From Fidelibacterota bacterium (lineage in GTDB: Bacteria > Fidelibacterota > UBA8477 > JABMPR01), in contig JAIPGJ010000002.1 of NCBI GenBank assembly GCA_021736185.1, positions 143-64,142 of the forward strand: a stretch of DNA of 64,000 nucleotides. Reading direction: 5' to 3'. This document shows, piece by piece, positions 4,474 through 62,255 of this stretch. A program made the position numbers and the translations under genes. The notes under the pieces are model-generated. The model was given only the letters and a program-made list of their open reading frames with translations. It was not told the DNA's origin and searched no databases. The number at the start of each line of letters is the position of its first letter. Positions within the stretch are counted from its first letter, which is position 1.

Positions 4474-4623
4474 CCAGCTAATTTATCTGACCTCCAGGTG
4501 AACCTGAGAAATCGAAGCTTCCCAGAGGCCGCTAAAACGCAGGACTTTAGACTGATCAAAAAAATGATAACCATGAAGACACCCGACCCCTGTTCGGATG
4601 AGTGAGAAAGGAAGACCATCAGC

Positions 4624-20511: not shown

Positions 20512-21057
20512 CTATGGCCAGATTTGTGGAACTTTTTGGATTTTATCAAGGGCATATCCCTGTTTTTCAACTTTATCTAAGATAGTCTGATAAACACTAT
20601 CAGAAAGACTGGATTCTCGTGCCATGATCCACAAATATTTGCGGTTGGGCACCCCGATCACTGTATAACTGTAATCTTCGGCAAGGTCGATAATAAGATA
20701 ACCCAACCTCAAGGGCCAAATGGGTTGGACCCGCCATTCCGCATTGGTTTCCTGGTTGTAAATAAAGCCCTTTTGGGTCATGTGTTTGGGCTTGCCTTCT
20801 GGAGATCCCGCCCGATAATCAAAAGAGACTTCAACGATTTCTTTTTCCGGGTTCCAGGTGTAGTTCTCAATGGCGTTGACGGCCCCTTTTTCAAAAGGCG
20901 TGGGGATATTGGCGATGACGTACCAGTCGCCCATGAAACGATCCAGGTCGACATGGTCAACCAGTTTTTGTTCGGCTTGCTTATCTGCTGCTGTAAGCAT
21001 GGTTATGAGTCCTATCAATAATATGATGGTGAGGTTAAATTTTGCACGCTTTTTCAT
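20512..21057 (-). CDS. lipocalin-like protein (distant Blc relative)
   Basis: Signal peptide plus DLDRFMGDWYVIANIPTPFEKG and ..YLWIMARE.. lipocalin motifs. Confidence 0.7.
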   Translation of the reverse strand: MKKRAKFNLTIILLIGLITMLTAADKQAEQKLVDHVDLDRFMGDWYVIANIPTPFEKGAVNAIENYTWNPEKEIVEVSFDYRAGSPEGKPKHMTQKGFIYNQETNAEWRVQPIWPLRLGYLIIDLAEDYSYTVIGVPNRKYLWIMARESSLSDSVYQTILDKVEKQGYALDKIQKVPQIWP

Positions 21058-23399: not shown

Positions 23400-24797
23400 T
23401 TACACCTTAACCTTTCGGTAATAATCCATGAAGAAGAGGTATCCAGCTACTTGAAGACGAGCATTGGTGATTGACCTGCTCAAGATTGGGCTCTTGGCTG
23501 TATTCCAATATCCCTTTCTTGTATTTGCAAATTCCCAAGCTTTGTATTTAGGTATGCCCAGTTTTGTGAGGTTACGTAAACGGGTTCTTATTCGTTTCCA
23601 TTGTTTCCAAATCACCATACGTAAACGCCTACGATACCATTTATCTATTCTTATCAATAGTTTATGCATATCAGCAAGTTTGAAATAGTTGACCCAGCCT
23701 CTGATGTAGATTTTGAGCTGCTCTTTCCTCCTTGCATTACCCCAACCATTACTTCTGGATGTGAGAACTTTGATCCGCTCCTTCATCTTAGTAATGCTTT
23801 TCGGGTGTACCCGTAGCAGTCCATTGCCATCATGGACATAGAACGAATATCCCAGGAATTTAATCCTTGAGACACTGGCTACTTTCGTCTTCTCCTTATT
23901 CACCTTGAGGAACAACTTCTTCTCAATAAATGACACAATGCTTGTCAATACGCGGTTTGCACTACGCTCACTCCTGGTAAATATCACCAAGTCATCAGCG
24001 TAGCGAACAAAGCGATGCCCGCGGGATTCAAGCTCCTTATCCAACTCATTAAGCATGATATTGCTCAATAATGGACTCAAAGGACCACCCTGTGGAACAC
24101 CCATTCTTGTTGGCTCAAACTTCTCGCCTACAACTACACCAGCATTTAGATATTTATGGATGAGCGAGATTACCCGGCCATCTTTTATAGTTCTTGATAA
24201 TACTTCTATCAATTTACTCTGATTGACTTTATCAAAGAACTTCTCTAAATCCATATCAACAGCATATTTGTAACCGGCTGTGATATTTGCTCTACATTGC
24301 TGTAAAGCCTGGTGGGCACTGCGTCCAGGTCTAAAACCATAACTACTGTCTGAAAATTGTAGCTCATATATAGGCGACAAGACCTGCTGGATTGCCTGTT
24401 GTATCACACGGTCTACTACCGTCGGTATACCAAGCAACCGCTTCTTGTTATTGTCCTTGGGTATCTCTACCCTGCGGACTGGATTAGGACGGTACTTACC
24501 ATCCAATATGGAACTTATTAGCTCATCTCTATTTTGAATTAGATAATCTTTTAAAGATTCGACATCCATCTTATCAACCCCACCACTTCCTTTGTTGGCT
24601 CGAACTTTCTTATAAGCCAGGTTCAGATTTGGTGGAGCAAGGATTTGCTCTAGTAATCCACATTCCGATTCGTTAAAACTTGTGATGTTGTTTTCAGTTA
24701 TCCACATAAAGGTCTGCACTCCAGAATATCCTTCGAGTTCCGCTCTAGCTTTCCTCTGGGAGCTGTCTTTTGACATTTTCTGCTTTCTATCCTTCAT
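23400..24797 (-). CDS. ltrA: group II intron reverse transcriptase/maturase (no endonuclease domain)
   Basis: RT motifs RRVEIPKDNNKKRLLGIPTVVDRVIQ, GVPQGGPLSPLLSNIML and RYADDLVIF. Maturase X domain RGWVNYFKLA. 465 aa with no HNH tail, as in IIC intron proteins. Confidence 0.95.
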   Translation of the reverse strand: MKDRKQKMSKDSSQRKARAELEGYSGVQTFMWITENNITSFNESECGLLEQILAPPNLNLAYKKVRANKGSGGVDKMDVESLKDYLIQNRDELISSILDGKYRPNPVRRVEIPKDNNKKRLLGIPTVVDRVIQQAIQQVLSPIYELQFSDSSYGFRPGRSAHQALQQCRANITAGYKYAVDMDLEKFFDKVNQSKLIEVLSRTIKDGRVISLIHKYLNAGVVVGEKFEPTRMGVPQGGPLSPLLSNIMLNELDKELESRGHRFVRYADDLVIFTRSERSANRVLTSIVSFIEKKLFLKVNKEKTKVASVSRIKFLGYSFYVHDGNGLLRVHPKSITKMKERIKVLTSRSNGWGNARRKEQLKIYIRGWVNYFKLADMHKLLIRIDKWYRRRLRMVIWKQWKRIRTRLRNLTKLGIPKYKAWEFANTRKGYWNTAKSPILSRSITNARLQVAGYLFFMDYYRKVKV

Positions 24798-25214
24798 CTG
24801 GTAACATTCATTTACTGATCACTACTTAAGGTTCAGTCCTTTCTAATTCGCTGTCGATAAATTAGTACTATGACCTCGGCTGACTTCTCACAGCTAATCT
24901 TTTTCAACCGTAATGGAATACATCCTCATTACGTCTGTGAGATCTCCCGTGGTAAGGTTAATAACTTTCTTTCCATGTAACTGTACCATCTACATCCTGA
25001 TATTCCGTGTAGTTTTCGGACTTCGTTTTGTTTAGTAAACTTATCCATATCAGACTGCCTAATGATCTTCGTGTTCCTCAGTTCGGAAATTTGCCTTAAG
25101 CTTCCTTCAGATTCGCAGTCACCCACGACACCCTTGCTCTCGACTAGTGGTTGGATACTACATTCCTCCACAGTGGACTTGCACCACCTAGTTATTAACC
25201 ATGCACGGCACACT

Positions 25215-25278: not shown

Positions 25279-25803
25279 TTAGGGGTGATCAACAAAGATC
25301 AAGGCACTGGTGTCGAACCCCAGACTGGCTGCTTTTTCAATAAATTGATCTTTCAACTCCTGGCTTACTTCTGGGGTCCGCGATAAAAACCACAGATATT
25401 TGGTGCTGGAACCTGAGATAAAAGCGTACTGGTATTCTGAATCCAGCTCAAAAACGGCATAGCTTCCATAAAAAGGACCAAAAAACGAAACCTTTAGATG
25501 ACCGACCTGGGGCTCGCCCACAAAGAAGGCCTTGCCCTCTGCATCTTTCCATTTTTCCTGCTGGCCGGAATAACCGCGATTGGTCACGCTGACACCGCCA
25601 TCGGGTCGCATGGCATATTCAGCAGTAACCGCCTGAAGCCCTCGTTCAAAAGAATGATCCAGCCTGGCTATCTCATACCATTTCCCCAGATATTTATCCA
25701 ACTCAAAACCCTGAACGGGAGTCACCCCTTCAGGCACTCCCAGACAACCCCCAAATAAAAACGGCAGCATGAGTGCCAGTATTTTTTTCATAAATTTCCC
25801 CAT
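25279..25803 (-). CDS. blc: outer-membrane lipoprotein lipocalin Blc
   Basis: Lipobox LFGGC. Motifs FELDKYLGKWYEIARLDHSFERGL and YLWFLSRTP are canonical bacterial lipocalin signatures. Confidence 0.9.
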   Translation of the reverse strand: MGKFMKKILALMLPFLFGGCLGVPEGVTPVQGFELDKYLGKWYEIARLDHSFERGLQAVTAEYAMRPDGGVSVTNRGYSGQQEKWKDAEGKAFFVGEPQVGHLKVSFFGPFYGSYAVFELDSEYQYAFISGSSTKYLWFLSRTPEVSQELKDQFIEKAASLGFDTSALIFVDHP

Positions 25804-25928: not shown

Positions 25929-26444
25929 TTAGAATTGATCAACATAAATTAATTGTGAGGTATCAAACCCTAGCTTTTGCGACTTTTCCACAAAATCATC
26001 TATGATATCCTCCTTCAAAAATTTTGTTCTGGAGAGCAGCCATAGAAAGGATCTGTCTTTTCCACAGACATAGGCATATTCGTAATCCGGGTCCAGCTCG
26101 AAAATAACATAGGGTTTATAGAGTGGACCAAAATAAGAAACCTTAAGGTGGCCGATGTTCGGGTCACCTGCCAGAGAGATTCGGCCTTCTTTTTCTCTCC
26201 ATTCAGTCCATTTGGTCAGATAGCCCCGATTCTTGAAAACGATATCGCCATCCTGGTTGCGGCGATATTCCGTGCTGACACTCTTGAGTCCTCGTTCATC
26301 CGCATTATCCAATCGAGCGATTTCATACCAGGTACCCAGATATCGATTTATTTTAAAGCGCTTAACCGGTTTAATCCCCTCGGGTACATCCACACAGCCA
26401 TTCACAACCAACGCCACCAATATTACTGTAAACAGGGTTTTCAC
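25929..26444 (-). CDS. blc: outer-membrane lipoprotein lipocalin Blc, tandem paralog
   Basis: Lipobox VVNGC. Motifs FKINRYLGTWYEIARLDNADERGL and FLWLLSRT. Collinear with the neighbouring blc gene. Confidence 0.9.
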   Translation of the reverse strand: MKTLFTVILVALVVNGCVDVPEGIKPVKRFKINRYLGTWYEIARLDNADERGLKSVSTEYRRNQDGDIVFKNRGYLTKWTEWREKEGRISLAGDPNIGHLKVSYFGPLYKPYVIFELDPDYEYAYVCGKDRSFLWLLSRTKFLKEDIIDDFVEKSQKLGFDTSQLIYVDQF

Positions 26445-40899: not shown

Positions 40900-40986
40900 C
40901 GCGAGTGAGATACGAACGCGGCGATCTCTCTGTTTTCCAGTATCAATATAATGAGATTGCTTCGTCGTTTCACTTCTCGCAATGAC
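40895..40986. repeat. inverted pair of family A repeat units (BIME-like)
   Basis: 40895-40928 GTCATCGCGAGTGAGATACGAACGCGGCGATCTC faces 40953-40986 GAGATTGCTTCGTCGTTTCACTTCTCGCAATGAC. Confidence 0.7.
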
Positions 40987-41016
40987 CCAGGAGGATCAAA
41001 CCTTAAGCAGAACATG

Positions 41017-42300
41017 TTATTGCAGATTTCCAGCGAGTTCCTTTGCGGGATCCACGCTTTCAAGGTTCTTCATGATTTCTTCAATAAACTGCCCGCCCAT
41101 GGCGCCATCAATGAGACGATGGTCAAAGCCCAGGGTAAAGACACACATTTGACGAATGGCTATTTCATCGCCAGTTTTCGTTTCAATCACCACCGGTTTC
41201 TTCTTAATGGCCCCGACTCCCAGGATCGCCATATTGGGCTGGTTGATGATGGGATAACCTGCCAGGTTGCTAAAAACACCAAAATTGGTAATGGAGAAGG
41301 TCGCACCTTCCAGGTCATCCAGGGTCAACTTCTTTTCCCGGGCCCGGCTCACAATATCTGAGATTGAGTCTGAGATTTCCAGTAAGGACTTTGCTTCGGC
41401 ATATCGTACTGGCGGAACCACCAGACCGTCCCCGACAGCCACGGCAATACCAATGTTCAGATGCTTATGACGGATAATTTTTGAGCCATCCAGGGAGCTG
41501 TTGATCAGGGGGAATTTCAGCAACGCATCACGAACCGCTTTGGTTATGAAATGAGTGACGGTGATGGAATGCCCGTGCTGTTTTTTAAACGCTGCATTGT
41601 TTTCGGAAATGAAGGCCATGATGGCCGTCATATCCGCTTCACTGACGGAATAGACATGGGCAGAGGTGTCAACGCTTTTTCGCATGTGTTTGGCGATACT
41701 TTTACGCATGCTGTCCATTTCAATGATTTCAACATCTTCAGCTGCGACTCGTTGGGCCAGACCGGTTTCTTCCAGCCCACGCAGGGAATGAGTCTTTTTA
41801 TTGCTGGAATCGCGGGTTTCCAGATAAAAGAGCACATCTTTTTTGGAGACACGACCACGGAATCCACTGCCGGGAATGCCTTGTAGTTCAGCCGGGCTGA
41901 TACCTTCCTGGGCCGCGATACTTCTTACCAGGGGAGAATACACCCGGTCATCACCAAATGTTGTGGGTTGTGGAGGCGCTTCGCGAAGCGCCGTCTTCAC
42001 CCCAAGGGGTTCAGCTGACCTGACAGGGGGATTGTCCTTTGGAATATGGCTCTGAATGTCATCAGAGGTTTCCACCCGGGCAATGATGGTATCTATATCA
42101 TAGGTCTGGTTGACTTTGCCGATAATCTCAATCAGGATGCCGGATACGGGACTGGGAATTTCTGCATCCACTTTATCCGTGGCAATCTCCAGGAGGGTTT
42201 CATCCTTATCGATGGTATCCCCAACGGCCTTTTTCCACTCCAGAACCGTGCCTTCAGTTAAGGATTCACCCATTTTGGGCATGACGATATCGAATATCAT
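41017..42300 (-). CDS. 2-oxoacid dehydrogenase E2 (dihydrolipoamide acyltransferase)
   Basis: Lipoyl domain EIATDKVDAEIPSP, E3-binding domain SPLVRSIAAQEGI and catalytic motif DHRLIDG. Confidence 0.9.
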   Translation of the reverse strand: MIFDIVMPKMGESLTEGTVLEWKKAVGDTIDKDETLLEIATDKVDAEIPSPVSGILIEIIGKVNQTYDIDTIIARVETSDDIQSHIPKDNPPVRSAEPLGVKTALREAPPQPTTFGDDRVYSPLVRSIAAQEGISPAELQGIPGSGFRGRVSKKDVLFYLETRDSSNKKTHSLRGLEETGLAQRVAAEDVEIIEMDSMRKSIAKHMRKSVDTSAHVYSVSEADMTAIMAFISENNAAFKKQHGHSITVTHFITKAVRDALLKFPLINSSLDGSKIIRHKHLNIGIAVAVGDGLVVPPVRYAEAKSLLEISDSISDIVSRAREKKLTLDDLEGATFSITNFGVFSNLAGYPIINQPNMAILGVGAIKKKPVVIETKTGDEIAIRQMCVFTLGFDHRLIDGAMGGQFIEEIMKNLESVDPAKELAGNLQ

Positions 42301-42337
42301 AGGGTCACCTTTTTAAACCATAATTATAGCAGAGGTC

Positions 42338-42359
42338 GGAGCGTTTCGCGAAACGCTCC
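42338..42359. repeat. 22-nt perfect palindrome GGAGCGTTTCGCGAAACGCTCC between the E1 and E2 genes
   Basis: Read directly from the sequence. No adjacent T-run on the coding (minus) strand. Confidence 0.9.
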
Positions 42360-42369
42360 AGCAATATTT

Positions 42370-44385
42370 TCAATACTCTAACAGTCTTTCTGAAGCTAGG
42401 CGGATGTCTTCGGTCTGTGGCAGGATTTCATCTTCCAGGTCCCAGTTGAAGGGGATGGGAGCATCTTTAGCTGCTACCCTCAATACGGGTCCATCCAGAT
42501 ACTCAAAATATTCTTCAGCGATAATCGCTGCTATTTCAGCACCAGGACCCGCCGTCAAGCTATCTTCATAAACGACCAGGGCCTTACTGGTCTTCTGTAA
42601 AGACTTTCCAATGGTCATTTTATCCAGAGGACTGAGTGTCCTCAGATCGATCACTTCAATGGAAACGCCTTGAGATTTTTCAAGCTGCCTGGCGGCCTCC
42701 AGGGCCTTATAAACCATTAAACCGTAGGTGATAATTGTGAGATCTCGTCCTTCGCGCACCACAGCAGCCTGACCAAAGGGAAGCAGATAATCTTCATCTG
42801 GTTCAGGACGCTTGGCAAAGCCCTGACGATACATGCCCTTGTGCTCCAGAAAGAGGACGGGGTCGTCACAGCGACAGGCATATTTAAGCAATCCTTTGGC
42901 ATCCGCCGCATTGGACGGATATACAATATGAATACCAGGTAAATGCATAAAGAAGCCCTCAATACTCTGGCTGTGGCATAAGCCGCCATGAATATAACCT
43001 CCCACGGGGGTTCGAATAACAAGGGGACATGAAAAGTGGTTGTTGCTGCGATATCGGATGGTGGCCACTTCATTACGGATTTGCATCATGGCCGTCCAGA
43101 TATAATCGCCGAACTGAATTTCAACCACCGGCTTCAAACCGGCAATGGCCGCACCAACGGCCGTACCAACGATGGAGGCTTCGGCCAAGGGTGAATTAAA
43201 GACCCGGTCTTTGCCAAACTCTGTAGAAAGTCCTTTGGTGGCAGTAAACACACCGCCTTTTCCATCGGCAACATCCTGACCATAGATAATCATTTTGTCG
43301 TTGCGGGTCATTTCCTCATGAAGGGCATGGTTGATGGCGTCCACAATAACGATTTCAGAACCAAAAGCAGGCGACGCCGAAGCTTTTACGGAAAGCGTCG
43401 TTTCGTTGACAACATGGGTGATTGCTTCAGCTCGCTCTGGGAAGGGAGCCGACATGGCTTTTTCAGCGGCTTCATCGACAGCTTGCAGAACCTCGTTCCG
43501 GATCTGCTGAAACTCATCTGGACTAATTATGCCTGAGTTCTCACATTGGGTTCTGAACTTTTCAATGGGATCCCGTTTTTGCTCTTCGGTGAGTTCATCG
43601 GCATTTCTGTATTTGCGGTGATCATCAGAAGAGGAATGGGGGAGCAGGCGTACGACGTTTGAAACCACAATAGCTGGACCGTTTCCGCTGCGAATACTGG
43701 CCATGGCCTTCTTAAATGTTTCATGGGATTCGAAAAAATCGGTCCCATCCGTTTCAAAGCGAGAGAGGTTTCCATAACCACCAACCATATCGTAGACCGA
43801 CCCCTCGGCTGTTTGGGACGACTTGGGAACCGAGATGGCGAAACCATTGTCTTCAATATGGAAAAGAACCGGTAATTTTTCACGACTGGCCCAGTTTAAG
43901 GCTTCATGAAACTCTCCCTGGCTGGTGGTTCCTTCTCCAGAAGAAACATAGACCAGGGCTTTATTTCCGGCGTGTCGAGCCGCCATGGCTGTTCCGACGG
44001 CCTGAAGAAACTGGGTGCCCGTGGGACTGGATTGGGTCACAATATTCAGATCTTTTTTGCCATAGTGCTGGGGGAGTTGGCGACCCCCTGACCCGGGGTC
44101 ATCCCTTTTTGCCAGAAACCCCAGAAAGAGGTCTTCTGTAGTCATTCCCAAGCCCATCACCATGGTTTGATCCCGGTAGTAGGGGTATGACCAATCCAGC
44201 TTGGGATTCATTTGCATGGCGCAGGCTAGCTGTGCCCCTTCATGTCCGGCAGCACCAATATGGAAAAATGATTTCCCCTGTCTCAGCAGGGTGAGCATTT
44301 TTTCATCGGTACGGCGTGAGGTTGCCATGGTTTTGAAAATGCCCACTAATTCGTTTTTGGTGAATCCTTTAAGGCTGGCTGACAC
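42370..44385 (-). CDS. 2-oxoacid dehydrogenase E1 component, fused alpha-beta subunits
   Basis: The N-terminal half has the TPP-binding E1-alpha pattern (SSGEGTTSQGEFHEALN). The C-terminal half is E1-beta (transketolase-like Pyr and C domains). Confidence 0.85.
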   Translation of the reverse strand: MSASLKGFTKNELVGIFKTMATSRRTDEKMLTLLRQGKSFFHIGAAGHEGAQLACAMQMNPKLDWSYPYYRDQTMVMGLGMTTEDLFLGFLAKRDDPGSGGRQLPQHYGKKDLNIVTQSSPTGTQFLQAVGTAMAARHAGNKALVYVSSGEGTTSQGEFHEALNWASREKLPVLFHIEDNGFAISVPKSSQTAEGSVYDMVGGYGNLSRFETDGTDFFESHETFKKAMASIRSGNGPAIVVSNVVRLLPHSSSDDHRKYRNADELTEEQKRDPIEKFRTQCENSGIISPDEFQQIRNEVLQAVDEAAEKAMSAPFPERAEAITHVVNETTLSVKASASPAFGSEIVIVDAINHALHEEMTRNDKMIIYGQDVADGKGGVFTATKGLSTEFGKDRVFNSPLAEASIVGTAVGAAIAGLKPVVEIQFGDYIWTAMMQIRNEVATIRYRSNNHFSCPLVIRTPVGGYIHGGLCHSQSIEGFFMHLPGIHIVYPSNAADAKGLLKYACRCDDPVLFLEHKGMYRQGFAKRPEPDEDYLLPFGQAAVVREGRDLTIITYGLMVYKALEAARQLEKSQGVSIEVIDLRTLSPLDKMTIGKSLQKTSKALVVYEDSLTAGPGAEIAAIIAEEYFEYLDGPVLRVAAKDAPIPFNWDLEDEILPQTEDIRLASERLLEY

Positions 44386-44400
44386 GCAAATTCTCCATAC

Positions 44401-45033
44401 TTAGTTTAACACCCTGTCATAGGCAAAGACGGTTTGGAAGGCCAGAATCAGAGGTTGTGCAACCGTTTCAACTGTGATCTCGCTTCCCAGCAACTCCTGC
44501 ATACTCACGACCCCCTTCCCTGTTATTCCGCAGGGAATCATGCCATTGAAATATGACATATCTGGTCTCACATTCAAGGCAAATCCATGCATGGTCACCC
44601 ACCGGGAAAGCCGTACGCCCATGGCACAAACTTTTTGACTACCCACCCAGACACCCGTCATTCCAGGGATGCGCTCTCCCGTGATGTCAAAATGCTGGAG
44701 GGTTTTTATAATAACCTCTTCCAGATTGCGCATAAACCAGCTCACGCTTTTCTTGTGATCTTCCAGATTGATAATGGGATATCCCACCAGTTGTCCGGGA
44801 CCGTGCCAGGTGATATCTCCACCGCGGTCGCTCTGAATAACCTGGGCATCGCGGGCATTGATGAGGTTCGATTTGTCCGCGTTTTTACCAAAGGTATATA
44901 CCGGGGGATGTTCTAGAAGAATCAGGGTGTCGGCAATCTCGCCAGCCAGTCGACGGGCATGGACCTGGCGTTGATATTCCCAGGCTTCTTCGTAGGGAAC
45001 CAAGCCTTTTTTTATGACGTGTAGATCAGACAC
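44401..45033 (-). CDS. lipB: lipoyl(octanoyl) transferase
   Basis: RGGDITWHGPGQLVGYP and the catalytic-region pattern KVCAMGVR..WVTMHGFALN. Confidence 0.9.
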   Translation of the reverse strand: MSDLHVIKKGLVPYEEAWEYQRQVHARRLAGEIADTLILLEHPPVYTFGKNADKSNLINARDAQVIQSDRGGDITWHGPGQLVGYPIINLEDHKKSVSWFMRNLEEVIIKTLQHFDITGERIPGMTGVWVGSQKVCAMGVRLSRWVTMHGFALNVRPDMSYFNGMIPCGITGKGVVSMQELLGSEITVETVAQPLILAFQTVFAYDRVLN

Positions 45034-45072
45034 AGGAGGGGTTTCTCAATTCTTTTATATTGCTAGATATGT

Positions 45073-45100
45073 GTCGTCCCTCGACTCCGCTCGGGATGAC
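45073..45100. repeat. intergenic hairpin repeat (family C): GTCGTCCCTCGACTCCGCTCGGGATGAC
   Basis: Related in terminus (..GGGATGAC) and layout to family A. Paired with 45158-45183. Confidence 0.5.
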
Positions 45101-45157
45101 GAACTCAGGTTGATGCCAATTCCAAGAGTGGCTTGTGATACTCCAAAAAACGGGACT

Positions 45158-45183
45158 GTCACCTCGAGCGAAGTCGAGAAATC
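45158..45183. repeat. intergenic hairpin repeat (family C, opposite orientation): GTCACCTCGAGCGAAGTCGAGAAATC
   Basis: Contains the internal palindrome CTCGA-GCGAAG-TCGAG. It faces the 45073 copy. Confidence 0.5.
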
Positions 45184-45212
45184 TTGACCTCCACATTTGA
45201 TTCTTGCCTGAA

Positions 45213-45680
45213 TCAAAATAACACCGCTAATTTTTCACAAATAGCTTCCAGCAACTCGGTGTCCTGATCTGTAAATGGGGAGATTGCATGGGAGTCTATA
45301 TCCAGCTCAGCCACAAATTTACCTGCTTTCATGATGGGAAAAACCACCTCTGACTGGACATTTGAGCTACAGGATAAATAATTATTCTCCAGGGAGACAT
45401 CCTGGATGATGCGACTCATTTCGAAGACTGCAACCTGGCCGCAAACGCCTTTACCAAAGGCAATCTTAACATGATCTGTGGCGGCACCCACATAGGGACC
45501 AAGAATTAGATTCTTGCCCGACTCATCAACGATATAAAATCCCACCCAGTTATAGTGGTCAATACTGCTGGAAAGGAGTTCAGCAATTTTCTGCAATACT
45601 TCATCCCTGGTTTTCAGGCTGGATAGGACTGTGTCCACAGATTTGAGAAGCGTTGGTATGTTGGGAAATGCCAGGTTCAT
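45213..45680 (-). CDS. msrC: GAF-domain free methionine-(R)-sulfoxide reductase-like protein (YebR/MsrC family)
   Basis: NWVGFYIVDE...LILGPYVG......I.FGKGVCGQ...SCSSNVQSEVVFPI...ELDIDS...FTDQD is collinear with E. coli YebR as I recall it. Confidence 0.7.
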   Translation of the reverse strand: MNLAFPNIPTLLKSVDTVLSSLKTRDEVLQKIAELLSSSIDHYNWVGFYIVDESGKNLILGPYVGAATDHVKIAFGKGVCGQVAVFEMSRIIQDVSLENNYLSCSSNVQSEVVFPIMKAGKFVAELDIDSHAISPFTDQDTELLEAICEKLAVLF

Positions 45681-45889
45681 GAAAAGCCTCTTTTTTCAGC
45701 ACTCATTCTAATTGATTTGATGTCTCATACCAAGGAGCTTCACCAACCAACTGCCTTGTGCTATATTTTATAATATCAACTATCCCAATATTATGGGAAG
45801 CGACCGTAGCGCCTTTGTCATAGAGAAGCTGTTGCTGTTCATCAATATTTTGAATCTTTCCCGTTTTTTTGGGATAGGTCTTGTCGCCT

Positions 45890-47296
45890 TTAAAGGTGAA
45901 TGCCGCGATCTAATGCCAGGGCGGAAGCTTCCATGATCATTTCTGACAATGTGGGGTGGGCATGAATGGTTTCGAGCACGGCTTCATGGGTTGCCTCAAG
46001 GGAACGGGCCATTCCGATTTCAGCAATCAATTCTGTTGCCTCCGCTCCAATAATGTGTGCGCCCAAAAGCTCCCCATATTTGGCATCATAGATGAGTTTG
46101 GTAAAACCATCAGTCTCTCCTGATGCCATCGCTTTTCCGGATACACGATAGGGGAACTTGCCAACCTTCACTTCGTATCCTGCTGCCCTCGCCGCTTTCT
46201 CGGTGAGTCCAATAGAGGCCACCTGAGGCGTGCAATAGGTGCAACCCGGCACGTTGTCATACTTCATGGGTTTCACATTTAATCCCGCGATGTGCTCAAC
46301 CGCAGTAATGCCTTCGTGGGAAGCTACGTGGGCCAGCCAGGGAGGACCAGCGACGTCACCAATGGCGTAAATGCCCGCCACAGAAGTCTGCATGTAGGCG
46401 TTGGTCTTAATCCAGCCTTTTTCCAGCTGGACACCAGCGGCCTCCAGTCCCAGATCCTCGATGTTACCCTGAACCCCGATGGCAATTAAAACTTTGTCTG
46501 CATCCAGCCCCAGAAGCTCACCTGTTTTGGTTTTTACTTTGACCAGAGCCCGATTTTCAGAGATAGAAATGCTTTCGACTTTAGCCTCGGTATGGGTCTT
46601 GATTTTTTTGCGTTTGAACATTTTTTGCAGCTCGATGGAGACCTCTTCGTCTTCAATGGGCAGCAGCTGTGGCAACATTTCAACCAGAGTCACTTCCGTG
46701 CCCATGGCAGCGTAAAAATCGGCGAACTCAACCCCAATAGCTCCGGCACCTACCACAACCAGCTTTTCAGGGATAGACTCAAGATTCATGGCTTCCTTGG
46801 ATGAGATGATGATTTTGCCATCAAATGCCGCGTCGGGCATGGGTCGCGGACGAGCGCCAGTAGCCAGAATGATATTGTCCGCGCTGATTTCCTGATCATC
46901 ATCGATGCTTATCCGGTTCCCGCCAATAAGTTTTGCACTACCGTTGATAACGTCTATCTCATTTTTTTTCATGAGAAAATCCACGCCCTTTGAAAGGGCT
47001 TCGGCGACCTGTCTTGAACGCTGTATCACTGCCGGAAAATCCACATCTACATCATCCACCAGTACGCCAAACTTTTTGGCTTTTTGGGCTGACCGCAATA
47101 CTTCGGCACTTTTTAAGAGGGCCTTGGTTGGAATACAACCCCAGTTCAGACAGATTCCACCCAACGCAGCGCGTTCAATAACAAGCGTCTTTTTACCCAG
47201 CTGAGCGGCGCGAATAGCAGCCACATATCCACCGGGTCCGCCGCCGATGATTGCGATGTCATAATGGGTTGTACTCACTGTAATTCCTTCTCTCAT
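45890..47296 (-). CDS. lpdA: dihydrolipoyl dehydrogenase (E3)
   Basis: FAD motif IIGGGPGGY, redox disulfide GGICLNWGCIPTK and C-terminal HAHPTLSE. Confidence 0.95.
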   Translation of the reverse strand: MREGITVSTTHYDIAIIGGGPGGYVAAIRAAQLGKKTLVIERAALGGICLNWGCIPTKALLKSAEVLRSAQKAKKFGVLVDDVDVDFPAVIQRSRQVAEALSKGVDFLMKKNEIDVINGSAKLIGGNRISIDDDQEISADNIILATGARPRPMPDAAFDGKIIISSKEAMNLESIPEKLVVVGAGAIGVEFADFYAAMGTEVTLVEMLPQLLPIEDEEVSIELQKMFKRKKIKTHTEAKVESISISENRALVKVKTKTGELLGLDADKVLIAIGVQGNIEDLGLEAAGVQLEKGWIKTNAYMQTSVAGIYAIGDVAGPPWLAHVASHEGITAVEHIAGLNVKPMKYDNVPGCTYCTPQVASIGLTEKAARAAGYEVKVGKFPYRVSGKAMASGETDGFTKLIYDAKYGELLGAHIIGAEATELIAEIGMARSLEATHEAVLETIHAHPTLSEMIMEASALALDRGIHL

Positions 47297-47360: not shown

Positions 47361-47927
47361 TTACGAGCCTTCTAATTTGAATTTATCCAGTATTTTCTCG
47401 TGCTGGATTTCAGAGTAATATTTTAAAAATTCTTTATACTCAGTTTTTGATATAAACGAATCAACGATGTGCTTGCTAATGAGAGTAGAGTCTCTTTTCC
47501 CAAGCCACTCCTGACAATTTGAGAATTCCCATTCGGCAGCCTCTGAAACCAGTCCTGCAGCGACAGGATTGAAATGGATATATGCTATTAGTTCCTGAAA
47601 ATATTTGTCACCCTCAATCAAAATGTGTTTAGGTCTTCCCTCAAAAAGCGTTCCTTTGCGACCCTCCTGTTTGTTAATCGCTTGAGAATACCCATTAAAA
47701 ATATACTGAAGCCATTTTGAAACTGGTATCTCAGAATTTTGCTGAACAAGCAAGTGATAGTGGTTTGGCATAAGACAATATGCGATGACATCAATGCCGA
47801 ATCGTTCTTTGGTGGTCGCTATTTTTTCTGTAAGATAACGATAGTTTTCTTCGGAATAAAAAATTTGCTTGTGGTTCCATCCTCGGTTGAAAACGTGATA
47901 TATCCCTGATTCTTGATACACGAACAT
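47361..47927 (-). CDS. rayT: REP-associated tyrosine transposase (RAYT; IS200-like Y1/HUH transposase)
   Basis: HUH motif CLMPNHYHLLVQQ and catalytic-Tyr helix AYIHFNPVAAGLV. 188 aa, visibly AT-rich relative to its neighbours, and flanked by REPs. Confidence 0.85.
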   Translation of the reverse strand: MFVYQESGIYHVFNRGWNHKQIFYSEENYRYLTEKIATTKERFGIDVIAYCLMPNHYHLLVQQNSEIPVSKWLQYIFNGYSQAINKQEGRKGTLFEGRPKHILIEGDKYFQELIAYIHFNPVAAGLVSEAAEWEFSNCQEWLGKRDSTLISKHIVDSFISKTEYKEFLKYYSEIQHEKILDKFKLEGS

Positions 47928-53309: not shown

Positions 53310-53942
53310 ATGAGGATCTACGCGTGTATGGCCACCTCTCTGGATGGCAAGATCGGGCCTGCCAATGTGGATCGATTTGTCCCCATAGGTTCTCGATATG
53401 ATATGGAAAACCTGATCGCGCTGCGGGATGATGCTGACGGGATACTCTTTGGCGCCAGCACTTTCAGAGCCTGGCCAAAAGTCCATCAGGGGAATGATCC
53501 CCAAAAAATCGCTCATCATTTTATAATGAGCCGCAGCCTGAATCTGGATTTTAGAGCCGAGCTTTTTCAAAACCCTGAAATACCCATCACCATTTACTCT
53601 GGCTCAGAAAATACAACCCCGAATCAATCTCCACCCGTTCATGTGGAAATTATCTCCATTCCTGATCAACCCGGTCAAATAGATCTTATTCTGAAGCATG
53701 TTGCCCAATGTGGCGTCAAGTCATTGCTCATAGAAGGTGGTGGTCACATTCTTCACAAATTTATAACTGCTCAAGTCCTGGAAGAGCTCTATCTCACGCT
53801 GGTTCCTGCAGTAATTGGCGATGAAATGGCTCCGGCCCTGCTGGGCGGGCAACATCTGGCAGCACTTCCTCATATTAAAATTCGGAATAGCCGGCAGATC
53901 GGGAATGAAATTTTTCTACACCTTGAGCTTCAGTATATTTAA
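53310..53942 (+). CDS. RibD C-terminal domain / dihydrofolate-reductase-like reductase
   Basis: MRIYACMATSLDGKI...LIEGGGHILHKFI...EELYLTLVP is the RibD_C pattern. Confidence 0.75.
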   Translation: MRIYACMATSLDGKIGPANVDRFVPIGSRYDMENLIALRDDADGILFGASTFRAWPKVHQGNDPQKIAHHFIMSRSLNLDFRAELFQNPEIPITIYSGSENTTPNQSPPVHVEIISIPDQPGQIDLILKHVAQCGVKSLLIEGGGHILHKFITAQVLEELYLTLVPAVIGDEMAPALLGGQHLAALPHIKIRNSRQIGNEIFLHLELQYI

Positions 53943-54042
53943 ATCCCTGTGGGAAAACTCTGGTTCTAATCTATGTTCTCTCCCATCATGGGTCACTATT
54001 ACATGCTTGTCTTTAGAAATCTCGTCAAATAAGATATATACT

Positions 54043-55383
54043 ATGAAACGCTCCCTTATGGTTTTGCTTTTTTTTATCACGACTGCCTGGGCTGATTATC
54101 CAGATCAGGACAAAGTATTAAGAACTGCAGACATGTGGGTTCAAATCAGCAGTAACAGCAATGTTGTGCTCAGCGAGGACGGTAGTTCTTTGCAGTTAGC
54201 CGATGGAACGACCTCGGGCTATTTCATCTTACTGCCTGATACTTTGCCATCTCCCTTTGATCGTGGGCTACCTTCATGGAATGGTGAGGCTCTTAACGAG
54301 AATGGCGGGTTTAAGGTTTCCATGCGCTTTAAATATGGCGCGACCTGGTCCCCATGGTTAACCGCAGGCTATTGGAAAAACTATATCTGGCCATCCTATG
54401 GAACCATATCCTACGCAGCAGGAGAAATTGACTATGATTATGTGGTTCTGGATGACTTTCATACGATCTGGCAATGGCGTGTTGAATTCAAGCGCCAGCT
54501 TGCCGCAGATCCTTCGCCATCCATCGAAAAACTCAGTTTTTATGTCAGTGATCAGAGAACCACTGACAATATGGACCTGTCAGCGATTGTCAATGATGAT
54601 CCGCCGGAGATATACATCCCTACAAACTTTGTCTGTCAGTATAATGTCGACCCTGTAATCGGTGGCAGTATCTGTTCGCCCACCTCCACGGTGATGGCTA
54701 TCCGCTCTTATGATATAGAAGTGGACCCCTATGACTTTGCCGTTGATAATTATGATGATTACTGGAACATCTTTGGTATGTGGCCACGGGCCGTCCAAAA
54801 TGCGGCGGGCTATCATCTTGATGGAGCGGTGACCCGGTATCGCACATGGAGTCAAGCGTATGACACGCTGGCTGCCGGTGGACGTGTTGTCATGTCAGTT
54901 GGACCCCCGCTTTATAGCGGGCATCTCATGATGCTGGCTGGTTTTGACAGTCAGGGTGATCCGCTGGTCCATGATCCTGCACGACAGAACGGTGAAGGCT
55001 ATAAATACAACAAATCTTCTCTCTCTCAATCCTGGTTCACCAAAGGCGGTGTGAGTTACACCTTCTTCCCAGACGAAACCCTGGTGGCTCTGGATGAAAG
55101 CGAAAAAACTTTCCGTCCGGCTCAACTGGCTTTGCACCAAAATTTTCCCAATCCTTTTAATCCATCTACCAGGCTGAGGTTTTCACTGCCCTCTGCCTCA
55201 TTCATCCAGCTGGGTATTTATGATCTTGCCGGAAAGCAGGTTGCCGCTTTAATCAGTGATTATTTGCCTCCAGGAAATCACCAACTGGTCTGGAATGCAG
55301 AAAACCAGGCAAGCGGGGTTTATCTCATACGCCTGGAATCCAATTCTGAAACACAGATAAAGCGTATGACCCTGTTAAAATAA
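54043..55383 (+). CDS. secreted papain-like (C39-like) cysteine peptidase-domain protein with T9SS C-terminal sorting domain
   Basis: ATG 54043 gives a signal peptide, MKRSLMVLLFFITTAWA. Candidate Cys (GGSICSPTSTVM) and His (YSGHLMMLAGFD..DPLVHDP) are arranged as in Peptidase_C39_2. The CTD is NFPNPFNPSTRLRF...KRMTLLK. Confidence 0.55.
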   Translation: MKRSLMVLLFFITTAWADYPDQDKVLRTADMWVQISSNSNVVLSEDGSSLQLADGTTSGYFILLPDTLPSPFDRGLPSWNGEALNENGGFKVSMRFKYGATWSPWLTAGYWKNYIWPSYGTISYAAGEIDYDYVVLDDFHTIWQWRVEFKRQLAADPSPSIEKLSFYVSDQRTTDNMDLSAIVNDDPPEIYIPTNFVCQYNVDPVIGGSICSPTSTVMAIRSYDIEVDPYDFAVDNYDDYWNIFGMWPRAVQNAAGYHLDGAVTRYRTWSQAYDTLAAGGRVVMSVGPPLYSGHLMMLAGFDSQGDPLVHDPARQNGEGYKYNKSSLSQSWFTKGGVSYTFFPDETLVALDESEKTFRPAQLALHQNFPNPFNPSTRLRFSLPSASFIQLGIYDLAGKQVAALISDYLPPGNHQLVWNAENQASGVYLIRLESNSETQIKRMTLLK

Positions 55384-60928: not shown

Positions 60929-61004
60929 ACTGCCTGGGTCACCATGGCCAGTTCCTATCGATGAAAATCCGGCTTCGCGAGTCCCGCAAAACCTATCATA
61001 AAAA

Positions 61005-61030
61005 AAGACGCCTCACATTTGAGGCGTCTT
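61005..61030. terminator. bidirectional rho-independent terminator
   Basis: 11-bp stem AAGACGCCTCA-CATT-TGAGGCGTCTT with an A-run upstream and a T-run downstream, 57 nt past the stop of the minus-strand thioredoxin-like gene. Confidence 0.75.
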
Positions 61031-61089
61031 TTAGTTTTTCTTTTTTCTGGTCTTCTTCTTTCCCGTCAACCAGATGGTGGGATAGGAAT

Positions 61090-62145
61090 CTAGCTGGAAG
61101 CCAGGAATTTAGCCTTCTGGTCCTGGTAATAGGTGTCTTCTGGTTGCAGAAGAATACATTCGTCCATGACGGCAACCGCTTCATCAATGCGACCAAGTTT
61201 CCAGAGCACTTCGCCCTTGGTGTCCATGATTTGAGCTTTTTCACGAGCACTTGCATCTGTGGCGAGCAGGGCGATTCCCTGGTTGATACGGACAAGGGCA
61301 TTATCAAGGTTTAAACCGAGTTCAGTCATGCGCCAGGCATAGCCATTTAGAATGCCTGCAGTTTCTTTATGAACACCCGACATAAAGTCAACATAACGAC
61401 GATAGGTATCTGCCTCGGCAGACTTGTCCTTGGTGCTGCGATAGAAGTTGCGCAAGGCATCATAAGCTTTGGGGAGAACCTCGGTATTGGTCTCGCTGTT
61501 GATAAAGGAAATCAGTGTTTCCGGGTCTGAATTCTCTTGGGCGTGATAAAGCGCCATTTTTAAGGCTGCCGTTGAGTGCAGGACCGGGTTCACCTCTTCC
61601 AGCCCGAAGAGCATTTCCCAATAGGTGATAGCTGTTTTGAGACCACTCATGGTTTCCACTTTACCAGCTAAAGACTGTAATAAGTCTGCGTTTTCCGGGT
61701 CATTCTCCAGCCGGTTGATCAAATCCGGAACCGTATTTATCCCATTGCGAATCCTGATCATTTCTGCTTGATATTCAGCAGGCGGCATAAAACCCACAAT
61801 ACGGTCAATTTCATTACCCTCTTCGTCCACAAAGACAAAGGAGGGAATCGAATGAATATTGTAGCGTTCCGTTAAAGCGTCATTTTGAGTTGAATCCACA
61901 TTTAAGTGATAGGAAACAAAATGCTCAGAGGCATAGGCTATGAGTGAAGGATCGATAAATGTTTCGGCGTCCAGCCGATTACAAGAGCCTCACCACTTGG
62001 CGAAGAATTCGTATCCGACAATTTTTCCGTTGGCTTCCACCTGAACACTGGCGTCAGTGATCCATGGGTAAACCGGGTCCTTTTCTGCACAGGCCAGGAT
62101 CATGAGTCCCGCGATGGCAGCGAACCATAGGTTGTTTGCTTTCAT
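61090..62145 (-). CDS. thioredoxin-fold (TlpA-like) lipoprotein with C-terminal TPR-like domain; in-frame UGA (codon 52, nt 61992-61990) read as selenocysteine
   Basis: ORFs 61990..62184 and 61090..61899 are in the same frame. Joined, they read MKANNLWFAAIAGLMILAC...YEFFAKW-U-GSCNRLDAETF...YNIHSIPSFVFVDEEGNEIDRIVG, a complete Trx fold with U at the first Cys of WCxxC. Confidence 0.6.
61960..61983 (-). promoter_or_regulatory. candidate bacterial SECIS stem-loop
   Basis: Minus strand reads UGU-AAU-CGGC-UGGAC-GCCG-AA-ACA, starting 7 nt after the UGA, with a GG-containing apical loop about 20 nt downstream. The short 4-bp upper stem makes this tentative. Confidence 0.35.
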
Positions 62146-62255
62146 GTTTGTCCTTTCAATATCTTGAATAAAAATTTTGGTCATATGAAGCTATTGACAG
62201 GAGCAACGATTTGCAACTGCTCCTTGTTCTAAGACCATCAATAACTGGTTTGATT

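What the first reader, a model, noticed from the sequence alone, without database searches (positions are those of the whole stretch)
61090..62145. In-frame UGA at the first Cys of a WCxxC thioredoxin motif: candidate selenocysteine-containing exported lipoprotein
Seen in sequence:
- The minus-strand ORFs 61990..62184 and 61090..61899 are in the same frame (the TGA at 61992-61990 and the GTG at 61899 are 93 nt apart).
- Reading through the TGA gives ...NGKIVGYEFFAKW-[UGA]-GSCNRLDAETFIDPSLIAYASEHFVSYHLNVDSTQNDALTERYNIHSIPSFVFVDEEGNEIDRIVGF...
- This is the beta1-alpha1-beta2-alpha2-beta3 layout of a thioredoxin/TlpA fold. The UGA sits exactly where the nucleophilic Cys of W-C-x-x-C belongs, and the resolving Cys is retained (U-G-S-C).
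- Neither half is credible alone. The upstream ORF is only a signal peptide, a lipobox (MILAC) and about 30 residues. The downstream ORF starts at a GTG in mid-fold.
- A small hairpin with a GG-containing loop follows the UGA (61983-61960).

Established knowledge: redox-motif Cys/Sec pairs in thioredoxin-fold proteins are the classic signature of bacterial selenoproteins.

Inference: this is a Sec-containing periplasmic thiol-disulfide oxidoreductase fused to a TPR-like domain, and standard gene callers miss it.
Basis: partly seen in the sequence, partly recalled or inferred. Interest (0 to 1): 0.8.

Follow-up and report, generated by a model that had tools for sequence, protein, structure and literature searches.

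The report
Selenocysteine thioredoxin-TPR lipoprotein gene, mis-annotated
This is a real gene for an exported redox enzyme whose catalytic residue is selenocysteine encoded by an in-frame UGA, conserved in dozens of marine Marinimicrobia relatives and routinely split or truncated by automatic annotation. It is a new member of an already known class of selenoproteins, not a new kind of system.

Summary
On the minus strand, one frame runs from ATG 62145 to TAG 61090, interrupted only by TGA 61992-61990. That TGA sits at the first position of a U-G-S-C redox motif inside a Pfam Thioredoxin_2 domain that spans it.

Across 120 sources, the codon in this column is TGA in 52, TGC/TGT in 48, and never TAA or TAG. 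In the Trx+TPR orthologues of Marinimicrobia/Fidelibacterota, a small hairpin lies 16 nt after the UGA (window 61983-61960, loop UGGAC). Compensatory changes maintain it, some of which alter the encoded amino acid. In Sec forms the core stem is paired in 159 of 160 cells, against 25 of 36 in Cys orthologues. The hairpin meets all four published bacterial SECIS criteria.

TGA is an ordinary stop elsewhere in the window. The protein is a signal-peptide/lipobox lipoprotein with a DsbD-gamma-like thioredoxin domain and a TPR superhelix, an architecture like CnoX/YbbN.

Sec-containing UxxC "thiol:disulfide interchange" (PF13098/cd02953) proteins are a known predicted family, so this is a new member. 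Public records annotate it as truncated fragments.

I could not check for selA, selB, selD or tRNA-Sec in the same genome.

The parts
61090..62145 (-). Complete selenoprotein gene: 351 codons, with Sec at codon 52, followed by a TAG stop.
   Evidence: Single frame ATG 62145 to TAG 61092-61090, interrupted only by TGA. Orthologues start at the equivalent MK(T/A)(N/K)xLW.
62089..62145 (-). Signal peptide ending in a lipobox-type Cys19 (MKANNLWFAAIAGLMILAC).
   Evidence: Read directly from the sequence. A hydrophobic leader followed by [G/A/S]-Cys was flagged by a simple pattern in 34 of 45 full-length orthologues. A few have a signal-peptidase-I-type leader instead. Inference only; no dedicated predictor was run.
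61990..61992 (-). In-frame UGA, the proposed Sec codon (residue 52).
   Evidence: TGA in 52 loci, TGC/TGT in 48, no TAA or TAG in this column. It aligns with the N-terminal Cys of WCxxC in Cys orthologues and in DsbD-gamma/2kuc.
61981..61992 (-). U-G-S-C redox motif (Sec plus resolving Cys55).
   Evidence: The second Cys is invariant in all Sec and Cys forms.
61960..61983 (-). SECIS-like hairpin. Lower stem 61983-61981 / 61962-61960. Upper stem 61978-61974 / 61968-61964. Apical loop UGGAC 61973-61969.
   Evidence: The MFE structure (-8.1 kcal/mol) matches the covariation model. On 41 orthologues, 90.2% of cells are paired, 6 of 8 pairs show double changes, and 0 of 500 shuffles reach the observed values. 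RNAalifold independently finds the core stem. It meets the four bSECIS criteria quoted.
61762..62037 (-). Thioredoxin-fold domain (residues 37-128), DsbD-gamma-like.
   Evidence: Pfam Thioredoxin_2, 54.5 bits. Best PDB sequence hits are 2kuc and DsbD C-terminal domains. NCBIfam best hits are the DsbD-like portions, below family cutoffs. The AF2 model shows beta-alpha-beta-alpha-beta-beta-alpha.
61093..61731 (-). All-helical TPR-like superhelix domain (residues about 139-351).
   Evidence: Pfam TPR_8/TPR_2/TPR_14 hits below their cutoffs. In the AF2 model, helices 139-358 have pLDDT above 90. Foldseek top hits are TPR superhelices.
61003..61032 (-). Intrinsic-terminator-like hairpin plus T-run, 58 nt after the stop codon.
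   Evidence: (13-bp stem, T tail), also visible. It suggests a monocistronic unit.

Best explanation
This is a single gene for a selenocysteine-containing, exported, lipid-anchored thiol/selenol-disulfide oxidoreductase.

**Decoding (comparatively well supported).** Translation starts at ATG 62145. At codon 52 the UGA is read as Sec, because a small mRNA hairpin 16 nt downstream recruits SelB carrying Sec-tRNA(Sec). The upper stem is UCGGC/GCCGA and the apical loop is UGGAC. Translation then continues to TAG 61090, giving a 351-aa product.

**Protein (inferred from homology and architecture).** The signal peptide directs export and Cys19 is lipidated. The DsbD-gamma-like thioredoxin domain uses the selenolate of U52 as nucleophile on substrate disulfides or oxidised cysteines. 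The mixed selenenyl-sulfide is resolved by Cys55. The C-terminal TPR superhelix acts as the client- or partner-binding module, as in the Trx+TPR chaperedoxin CnoX/YbbN. Re-reduction by a DsbD/CcdA-type membrane shuttle is assumed, not shown.
For: - **Continuous domain.** The Pfam Trx domain spans the UGA. Peptide conservation continues in frame on both sides in all orthologues, with YPW...DF(Y/E)T(D/E)W upstream and xxC(x)RLDA(D/E)T downstream.
- **Sec/Cys pairs.** The column is TGA in 52 loci and Cys in 48, never TAA or TAG. Cys forms are interspersed in the family tree. One Cys form is 85% identical to a TGA sister.
- **SECIS covariation.** Stem variants are CGGC/GCCG, CUGC/GCAG, CGAC/GUCG, CGUU/AACG, CGCU/AGCG and CAGC/GCUG. 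Several change the encoded amino acid (Ala to Asn, Val or Ser; Arg to Leu or Gln) while keeping pairing. Overall, 22 compensatory cells were seen, 0 of 500 shuffles matched, and slid-register controls gave 22-55% paired against 90%.
- **Synonymous-site constraint only in Sec forms.** The Leu codon ends in G in 40 of 40 Sec forms and 1 of 8 Leu codons in Cys forms (a ninth has ATG/Met). The core stem is paired in 159 of 160 cells against 25 of 36.
- **bSECIS criteria met.** All four are satisfied.
- **TGA is a normal stop.** It ends 10 of 45 Pfam-supported ORFs in the window, so there is no code reassignment.
- **Architecture.** The AF2 model has pLDDT 87.9. Foldseek and hhalign link it to CnoX, and its Trx domain resembles DsbD-gamma and 2kuc.
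- **Lineage hint.** SAR406 single-cell genomes carry SelD according to Peng et al. 2016 (PMC5029168).
Against: - No selA, selB, selD or tRNA-Sec could be examined for this genome. None lie in the window or in 850 kb of related loci.
- The hairpin is small, sits at the minimum allowed spacing (16 nt) and is near the energy threshold. Alone it is not better than shuffles (z = -0.84).
- No Rfam family matches.
- There is no conserved gene neighbourhood to support a specific substrate or reductant.
- No DsbD/CcdA is present in the window.
- One orthologous contig has a 1-nt deletion in the UGA codon.
- There is no experimental evidence of Se incorporation.
Confidence: 0.88

Rival explanations
1. 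SECIS/SelB-dependent recoding occurs, but it inserts cysteine or another residue rather than selenocysteine, for example through a tRNA-Sec-like Cys tRNA.
For: Sequence alone cannot say which residue is delivered. Cys is functionally acceptable at this site, as shown by the many Cys orthologues.
Against: No such tRNA was seen in any fetched sequence. The pattern of TGA/Cys pairs plus a SECIS is the standard signature of true selenoproteins. SAR406 genomes carry SelD.
Confidence: 0.04
2. UGA terminates translation. The locus then makes a 51-aa lipopeptide, and possibly a separately initiated C-terminal fragment from GTG 61899 or another start, as current annotations imply.
For: Public annotations call exactly such fragments. 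Some termination at UGA is expected when selenium is limiting.
Against: - Neither fragment is a complete fold, because the Trx domain spans the UGA.
- The 31 codons between the UGA and the GTG are conserved at protein level, including the resolving Cys.
- Annotated starts differ from record to record (lengths 232-305 aa).
- The downstream fragment would lack a signal peptide.
- The hairpin covaries.
Confidence: 0.03
3. The gene is a pseudogene, or the TGA is a sequencing or assembly error for TGC/TGT.
For: A single base separates TGA from TGC/TGT. One related contig does carry a 1-nt deletion at this codon, and a close relative has TGC.
Against: The same TGA occurs in more than 40 distinct orthologues from independent assemblies at 29-80% identity. 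The frames are otherwise intact and a stem is maintained by selection.
Confidence: 0.01
4. TGA is decoded by SECIS-independent read-through, or this lineage has reassigned it (Trp or Gly).
For: Some database translations read W at this column (P0001, P0090, P0100).
Against: - P0001 also reads W at what is evidently its own terminal stop codon: it carries a 14-residue W-initiated extension past the aligned C-terminus. That marks a code-4-type gene call on a short contig, not biology.
- TGA ends 10 of 45 well-supported ORFs in the window.
- A Trp at the nucleophile position would kill the redox motif.
- The hairpin constraint is unexplained by simple read-through.
Confidence: 0.02

Closest known systems
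Predicted selenoprotein family 'Thiol:disulfide interchange protein' / 'Trx-like 2' (PF13098, cd02953; UxxC), from Kryukov & Gladyshev 2004 and Zhang & Gladyshev 2008, as tabulated in PMC13188914 and PMC2398784
   Same: It has the same Pfam domain (Thioredoxin_2), the same DsbD-gamma-type subfamily, and the same UxxC motif with Sec at the N-terminal nucleophile position. A bacterial SECIS lies immediately downstream, and the setting is marine metagenomic.
   Different: This protein has a roughly 215-residue TPR superhelix fused C-terminally and a lipoprotein leader, and it forms a distinct orthologous group in Marinimicrobia/Fidelibacterota. Neither paper mentions a TPR fusion or this phylum. 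I could not compare directly with the family's representative sequence.
DsbD C-terminal (gamma) domain and Bacteroides 'putative disulphide isomerase' 2kuc
   Same: These are the best sequence matches to the Trx domain (E 3e-12 to 1e-9). Cys orthologues carry DWCVWC, against the WCGPC of 2kuc that aligns at the same column. Both are on the exported side of the membrane.
   Different: There is no DsbD membrane or alpha domains. It scores far below the DsbD and TsoB family cutoffs (45-56 bits against 330-805). It has Sec instead of Cys, and a TPR domain is appended.
CnoX / YbbN chaperedoxin (E. coli, PDB 3qou)
   Same: It is the only solved protein that aligns over the full length (341 columns): an N-terminal Trx domain followed by a TPR domain. 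hhalign gives probability 92.7%, E 4e-7, over the Trx domain plus the first TPR helices.
   Different: CnoX is cytoplasmic and has no signal peptide. E. coli CnoX lacks a CxxC (SQHC, from my own knowledge). Global TM-score is only 0.19-0.24. Sequence identity is about 19%. It contains no Sec.
Experimentally verified Sec-thioredoxin (Trx, PF00085, UxxC) listed in PMC13188914
   Same: It has the thioredoxin fold and Sec in the UxxC motif.
   Different: That protein is a small cytoplasmic single-domain Trx. This one is exported, lipid-anchored and has two domains.

Membership tests
Bacterial selenoprotein gene (Sec-UGA recoding) | In-frame UGA aligned with Cys in homologues (Sec/Cys pair) | tested here: met
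   TGA in 52 loci and TGC/TGT in 48 at the same column. Cys orthologues occur within the same family, one at 85% identity.
Bacterial selenoprotein gene (Sec-UGA recoding) | Protein-level conservation on both sides of the UGA, and TGA-containing orthologues in other organisms | tested here: met
   There are more than 40 distinct TGA orthologues at 29-80% identity.
Bacterial selenoprotein gene (Sec-UGA recoding) | bSECIS model: loop 3-9 nt, upper stem 4-16 bp, G in the first two loop positions, spacing 16-37 nt, MFE <= -7.5 kcal/mol | tested here: met
   Loop is 5 nt (UGGAC), stem 5 bp, G at loop position 2 followed by G, spacing 16 nt, MFE -8.1 kcal/mol. Criteria are taken from PMC13188914. The bSECISearch program itself was not run.
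Bacterial selenoprotein gene (Sec-UGA recoding) | selA, selB, selD and tRNA-Sec present in the same genome | not testable with these tools
   Only the 64-kb window is available. None were found in it or in 850 kb of related loci. The literature notes SelD in SAR406 single-cell genomes.
Bacterial selenoprotein gene (Sec-UGA recoding) | Selenium incorporation shown experimentally | not testable with these tools
Thioredoxin_2 (PF13098) / DsbD-gamma-like thioredoxin fold | Domain score above the Pfam gathering threshold, and a C/UxxC at the N-terminus of helix 1 | tested here: met
   54.5 bits against a cutoff of 27. The alignment to 2kuc puts U on the first Cys of WCGPC. The AF2 secondary structure is consistent with a Trx fold.
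DsbD (protein-disulfide reductase) / TsoB | Full-length family score above the NCBIfam cutoff (membrane and alpha domains present) | tested here: not met
   45.7 bits against 330 (DsbD) and 56 against 805 (TsoB). Only the C-terminal Trx part matches.
CnoX/YbbN chaperedoxin | Trx domain followed by a TPR domain | tested here: met
   AF2 model. Foldseek aligns 341 columns to 3qou and 340 to 3qdn. hhalign probability is 92.7%.
CnoX/YbbN chaperedoxin | Cytoplasmic location and close structural/sequence similarity over both domains | tested here: not met
   A signal peptide and lipobox are present. TM-score is 0.19-0.24. hhalign covers only 145 columns at 19% identity.
Bacterial lipoprotein | Signal peptide ending in a lipobox with an invariant Cys | tested here: inconclusive
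   ILAC at residues 16-19. A simple pattern found the leader Cys in 34 of 45 orthologues. No dedicated predictor (SignalP/LipoP) was available.

The most novel reading that the evidence does not exclude
The most novel reading not excluded is as follows. This would be the founding member of an envelope 'seleno-chaperedoxin': a lipid-anchored, CnoX-like Trx+TPR holdase/reductase whose nucleophile is selenocysteine. It would be near-universal in the abundant marine phylum Marinimicrobia (SAR406). Envelope protein redox repair in a major ocean clade would then depend on selenium supply, and the repeated Sec/Cys switching would track selenium availability.
Probability: 0.25. Interest if true: 0.55.

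Novelty: new member of a known kind. Interest (0 to 1): 0.4.

Why it matters
- **Annotation.** Public records for this widespread Marinimicrobia gene (NCBI, JGI, ENA) are split or N-truncated and lack the signal peptide and the catalytic residue. NCBIfam has no model that would rescue it. A family-specific model would correct hundreds of entries.
- **Biology.** It indicates that Marinimicrobia/Fidelibacterota, abundant in the dark ocean and in oxygen-minimum zones, decode Sec and place a selenoenzyme in the cell envelope. This adds a selenium requirement to their physiology.
- **Method.** The family is a clean natural data set for a minimal bacterial SECIS with a 4-5 bp stem and 16-nt spacing. 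Protein sequence visibly yields to RNA structure (Ala to Asn, Val or Ser and Arg to Leu or Gln swaps that preserve pairing). It also contains very recent Sec/Cys switches.

Tried and rejected
- **Other in-frame-TGA ORF pairs in the window.** Candidates at 4603, 6598 and 32447, plus motif-based candidates at 33604 and 51778, were translated. None look like read-through proteins, so this is the only selenoprotein candidate in the window.
- **Rfam.** Only a group II intron matched at gathering threshold. Nothing meaningful matched at E <= 10 around the UGA.
- **tRNA-Sec.** ARAGORN found none in the window or in any fetched locus.
- **Sel genes.** tblastn with E. coli SelA, SelB and SelD against the window plus 850 kb of loci gave no hits. 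This is uninformative given the small fraction of each genome held.
- **Synteny.** Neighbours are conserved only among the closest relatives (L001-L003), and no partner gene is shared across the family. The window neighbours are unrelated: a FecR-domain protein, a solute-binding protein and a CitMHS transporter.
- **UGSC-containing selenoprotein family (NF041046).** The shared U-G-S-C motif made this a candidate, but there was no NCBIfam hit, so it was rejected.
- **Structure prediction of the joined sequence.** I used the 78%-identical orthologue P0001 instead, which has W at the U column. The active-site loop is therefore low confidence (pLDDT 58 for residues 51-60).
- **Literature.** Searches for Marinimicrobia, SAR406, Marinisomatota or Fidelibacter with seleno* terms found no description of this protein.
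Full report
**1. Observation**

On the minus strand a single reading frame runs from ATG 62145-62143 to TAG 61092-61090. It is interrupted only by TGA at 61992-61990.

- The ORF finder splits it into 61990..62184 (64 aa) and 61090..61899 (269 aa, GTG start).
- Read-through gives ...IVGYEFFAKW-U-GSCNRLDAETFIDPSLIAYASEHF...
- With Cys substituted for the UGA, the 351-aa product matches Pfam Thioredoxin_2 (E 1.6e-14, 54.5 bits against a cutoff of 27) over residues 37-128, across the UGA. It also gives weak TPR hits at the C-terminus.
- The N-terminus MKANNLWFAAIAGLMILAC is a signal peptide ending in a lipobox-type Cys.
- A terminator-like hairpin with a T-run lies 58 nt after the stop (61032-61003).

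**2. Is the UGA real and conserved?**

A protein search returned 84 relatives, mostly labelled Candidatus Marinimicrobia, Neomarinimicrobiota or Fidelibacterota.

- Almost all are N-truncated calls of 232-305 aa that begin just after the UGA column.
- The few "full-length" calls either have Cys (P0067 and P0069, EWCVWC) or read W at that column.
- One of the W-reading calls, P0001, also carries a 14-residue W-initiated extension past the aligned C-terminus. That means its own terminal stop was read as W by a code-4-type gene call on a short contig.

I fetched DNA for 41 loci from reference genomes and 78 from metagenomes. I anchored on the conserved E(I/V)DRI(V/I)G motif and read the codon at the first position of the xxC motif.

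- The codon is TGA in 52 sources, TGC in 38 and TGT in 10. It is never TAA or TAG.
- Within the Trx+TPR orthologues (45 full-length reconstructions), Sec forms dominate.
- Cys forms (L004, L009, L010, L046, L048, L054, L059, L060) are scattered over the tree in at least four places.
- A further Cys orthologue (P0122, locus L124, TGC) is 85% identical in protein to a TGA-bearing sister (P0001, loci L125-L127).
- The upstream part (leader, YPW, DF(Y/E)T(D/E)W) is conserved in the same frame as the downstream part in all of them.
- TGA is an ordinary stop in 10 of 45 Pfam-supported ORFs of the window, so the code is standard.

Sequencing error, pseudogene and code reassignment are therefore excluded as general explanations.

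**3. The RNA element**

Numbering starts from the U of UGA.

| Feature | Positions | Window coordinates |
|---|---|---|
| Lower stem | 10-12 with 31-33 | 61983-61981 / 61962-61960 |
| Upper stem | 15-19 with 25-29 | 61978-61974 / 61968-61964 |
| Apical loop UGGAC | 20-24 | 61973-61969 |

- This structure is the MFE fold at -8.1 kcal/mol. On its own it is not better than shuffled sequence (z = -0.84).
- On a gap-free alignment of 41 distinct TGA orthologues, 90.2% of cells are paired. Six of eight pairs show changes on both sides, with 22 compensatory cells. No shuffle out of 500 reaches any of the observed measures. Sliding the 3' partner by 1 to 3 columns in either direction drops pairing to 22-55%.
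- RNAalifold, with no structure supplied, finds the core stem 16-19/25-28.
- Stem variants include CGGC/GCCG, CUGC/GCAG, CGAC/GUCG, CGUU/AACG, CGCU/AGCG and CAGC/GCUG.
- Because the stem is built from the Arg-Leu-Asp-Ala codons, several of these swaps change the protein (Ala to Asn, Val or Ser; Arg to Leu or Gln) while keeping the helix.
- The constraint is specific to Sec forms:

| Measure | Sec forms | Cys orthologues |
|---|---|---|
| Core stem cells paired | 159 of 160 | 25 of 36 |
| Loop starts UGGA | 40 of 40 | 2 of 9 |
| G-ending codon at the Leu position | 40 of 40 (all Leu) | 2 of 9 (1 of 8 Leu codons, plus one ATG/Met) |

- One extra Sec subgroup (L125-L127) has loop UGUUA, still G followed by U.
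- More distant TGA-bearing relatives (L024, L034, L085, L098-L100, L102) have a hairpin about 6 nt further 3'. In L024, L085 and L098-L100 its loop is GGUC; by my reading L034 has AGGU and L102 CGUGAU (the folds are my reading of the sequences, not computed).
- The published bacterial SECIS model requires a 3-9 nt loop, a 4-16 bp upper stem, a G in the first two loop positions, 16-37 nt between UGA and loop, and MFE <= -7.5 kcal/mol (PMC13188914). The window element meets all four, at the lower limit of spacing and near the energy limit.
- Rfam has no matching family.

**4. What could not be shown**

- No tRNA-Sec and no SelA, SelB or SelD were found in the window, or in about 850 kb of related loci. 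This covers only a small fraction of any genome, so it says nothing either way.
- The tools did not let me reach the rest of the genome.
- The literature held here has no account of selenoproteins in this phylum. Peng et al. 2016 list three SAR406 single-cell genomes as carrying SelD (PMC5029168).

The selective maintenance of TGA plus hairpin is indirect evidence that the machinery exists.

**5. The protein**

- **Structure model.** An AlphaFold2 model of the 78%-identical orthologue P0001 has mean pLDDT 87.9 and pTM 0.80. It shows a thioredoxin fold (strands 42-48, 76-82, 102-106 and 112-117 with intervening helices), followed by thirteen helices from 139 to 358. The active-site block is low confidence, because few sequences cover the N-terminus and the model carries W at the U position.
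- **Thioredoxin domain.** The best sequence matches in the PDB are 2kuc (a Bacteroides "putative disulphide isomerase", E 3e-12) and DsbD C-terminal domains. NCBIfam gives only sub-threshold matches to the DsbD-like parts of TsoB and DsbD.
- **Helical domain.** Foldseek finds TPR superhelices. The only full-length architectural matches are E. coli YbbN/CnoX (3qou, 341 columns, TM 0.19-0.24) and its Salmonella homologue 3qdn. hhalign of the family profile against CnoX gives probability 92.7%, E 4e-7, over the Trx domain and the first TPR helices.
- **Leader.** Most orthologues carry a leader ending in [G/A/S]-Cys. A few have an ordinary signal peptide.
- **Context.** Gene neighbourhood is conserved only among close relatives, and no DsbD/CcdA gene is nearby.

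**6. Most likely mechanism**

*Shown comparatively:* SelB/SECIS-type recoding of UGA 61992-61990 gives one 351-residue pre-protein.

*Inferred:*
- The protein is exported and lipidated at Cys19.
- The selenolate of U52 attacks substrate disulfides or oxidised cysteines.
- Cys55 resolves the mixed selenenyl-sulfide.
- The TPR domain binds clients or partners, as in CnoX.
- Reducing power comes from a CcdA/DsbD-type shuttle encoded elsewhere.

Confidence that this is a genuine selenoprotein gene is about 0.9. Confidence in the specific physiological role is much lower.

**7. Comparison with what is known**

[quoted passage not shown] - The window protein has the same domain type, the same motif and the same kind of SECIS, so it belongs to a known kind.
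- What I did not find described is the fusion to a TPR superhelix, the lipoprotein leader and the Marinimicrobia orthologous group.
- It is not a DsbD or TsoB, because the family cutoffs are missed by a wide margin. It is not a CnoX family member, because it is exported and its structural similarity is low. It resembles CnoX in architecture only.
- It has no hit to the "UGSC-containing protein" model despite the identical tetrapeptide.

**8. Annotation status**

- NCBI records call it "thioredoxin family protein", "thioredoxin fold domain-containing protein" or "hypothetical protein", at 269-302 aa.
- JGI calls it "TPR repeat protein" at 232-269 aa.
- The 51-aa upstream piece is a separate "hypothetical protein" (MBC8191979.1, next to MBC8191978.1).

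**9. Verdict**

The finding is a well-founded new member of a known selenoprotein class with an unreported domain fusion. It is systematically mis-annotated in an ecologically important phylum. It is useful and solid, but not surprising to a selenoprotein specialist. Interest is 0.4.

Noticed in passing
window 23400-25128 (minus strand): A group II intron. Rfam D1-D4 domains match at 24836-24904 and 24957-25128. The ORF 23400..24797 encodes a reverse transcriptase/maturase (RVT_1 + GIIM). It is inserted within a cluster of three lipocalin-like genes (20512..21057, 25279..25803, 25929..26444).
   Followed up: partly
L122 45-60 (ENA ERZ27316756 k141_116028): A close orthologue reads tgg-tag-gc... 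instead of tgg-tga-ggc. One base of the Sec codon is deleted, shifting the frame, and the gene caller restarted at an overlapping GTG (protein P0006, MVGSC...). This is either an assembly error or a real pseudogene.
   Followed up: partly
L124 454-456 versus L125-L127 454-456: Two sister orthologues are 85% identical in protein and 82% in DNA. They differ at the catalytic codon (TGC versus TGA) while sharing the same hairpin, CGGC-UGUUA-GCCG. This is a very recent Sec/Cys switch, and it shows a second loop variant in the family.
   Followed up: partly
L024, L034, L085, L098, L099, L100, L102, L106 (TGA positions listed): More distant TGA-bearing relatives of the Trx domain carry U-x-x-C too. 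They come from Zixibacteriota and Holophagae MAGs and from unassigned metagenome contigs. Except for L106, whose hairpin is in register with the main family, their hairpin lies about 6 nt further downstream. By my reading of the sequences its loop is GGUC in L024, L085 and L098-L100, AGGU in L034 and CGUGAU in L102.
   Followed up: no
window 856-1950, 9903-11738, 30162-32369, 53815-55383: Four proteins carry a C-terminal type-IX-secretion sorting domain (Por_Secre_tail), three of them also with FlgD_ig. This fits an FCB-group/Fidelibacterota origin for the window.
   Followed up: no
window 47361-47927 (minus strand): An IS200-like Y1 transposase gene lies between a dihydrolipoamide-dehydrogenase-like gene and a nucleotidyltransferase gene.
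   Followed up: no
window 39976-47296 (minus strand): A 2-oxoacid dehydrogenase gene cluster: a fused E1, an E2, a pyridine nucleotide-disulphide oxidoreductase (E3-like), lipoyl synthase and a lipoyl ligase/transferase.
   Followed up: no
window 18077-18592 (minus strand): An AhpC/TSA peroxiredoxin is encoded as an uninterrupted ORF. I did not inspect its active-site residue, but no in-frame TGA candidate was found there. The Trx-TPR gene is the only selenoprotein candidate in the 64-kb window.
   Followed up: partly
proteins P0001, P0090, P0100, P0103, P0104 in the protein collection: Some ENA/Logan gene calls on short contigs read the Sec UGA as W (P0001, P0090, P0100 checked). In P0001 the terminal stop was evidently read as W as well, giving a 14-residue extension. 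These look like code-4-type calls and produce spurious 'full-length' proteins with W at the catalytic position. P0103 and P0104 are 351 aa but were not inspected.
   Followed up: partly
window 53310-53942 and 53815-55383 (plus strand): Two well-supported ORFs, a RibD_C-domain protein and a Peptidase_C39-like protein with a T9SS tail, overlap by 128 nt as listed. The TTG start of the second is probably too far upstream.
   Followed up: no
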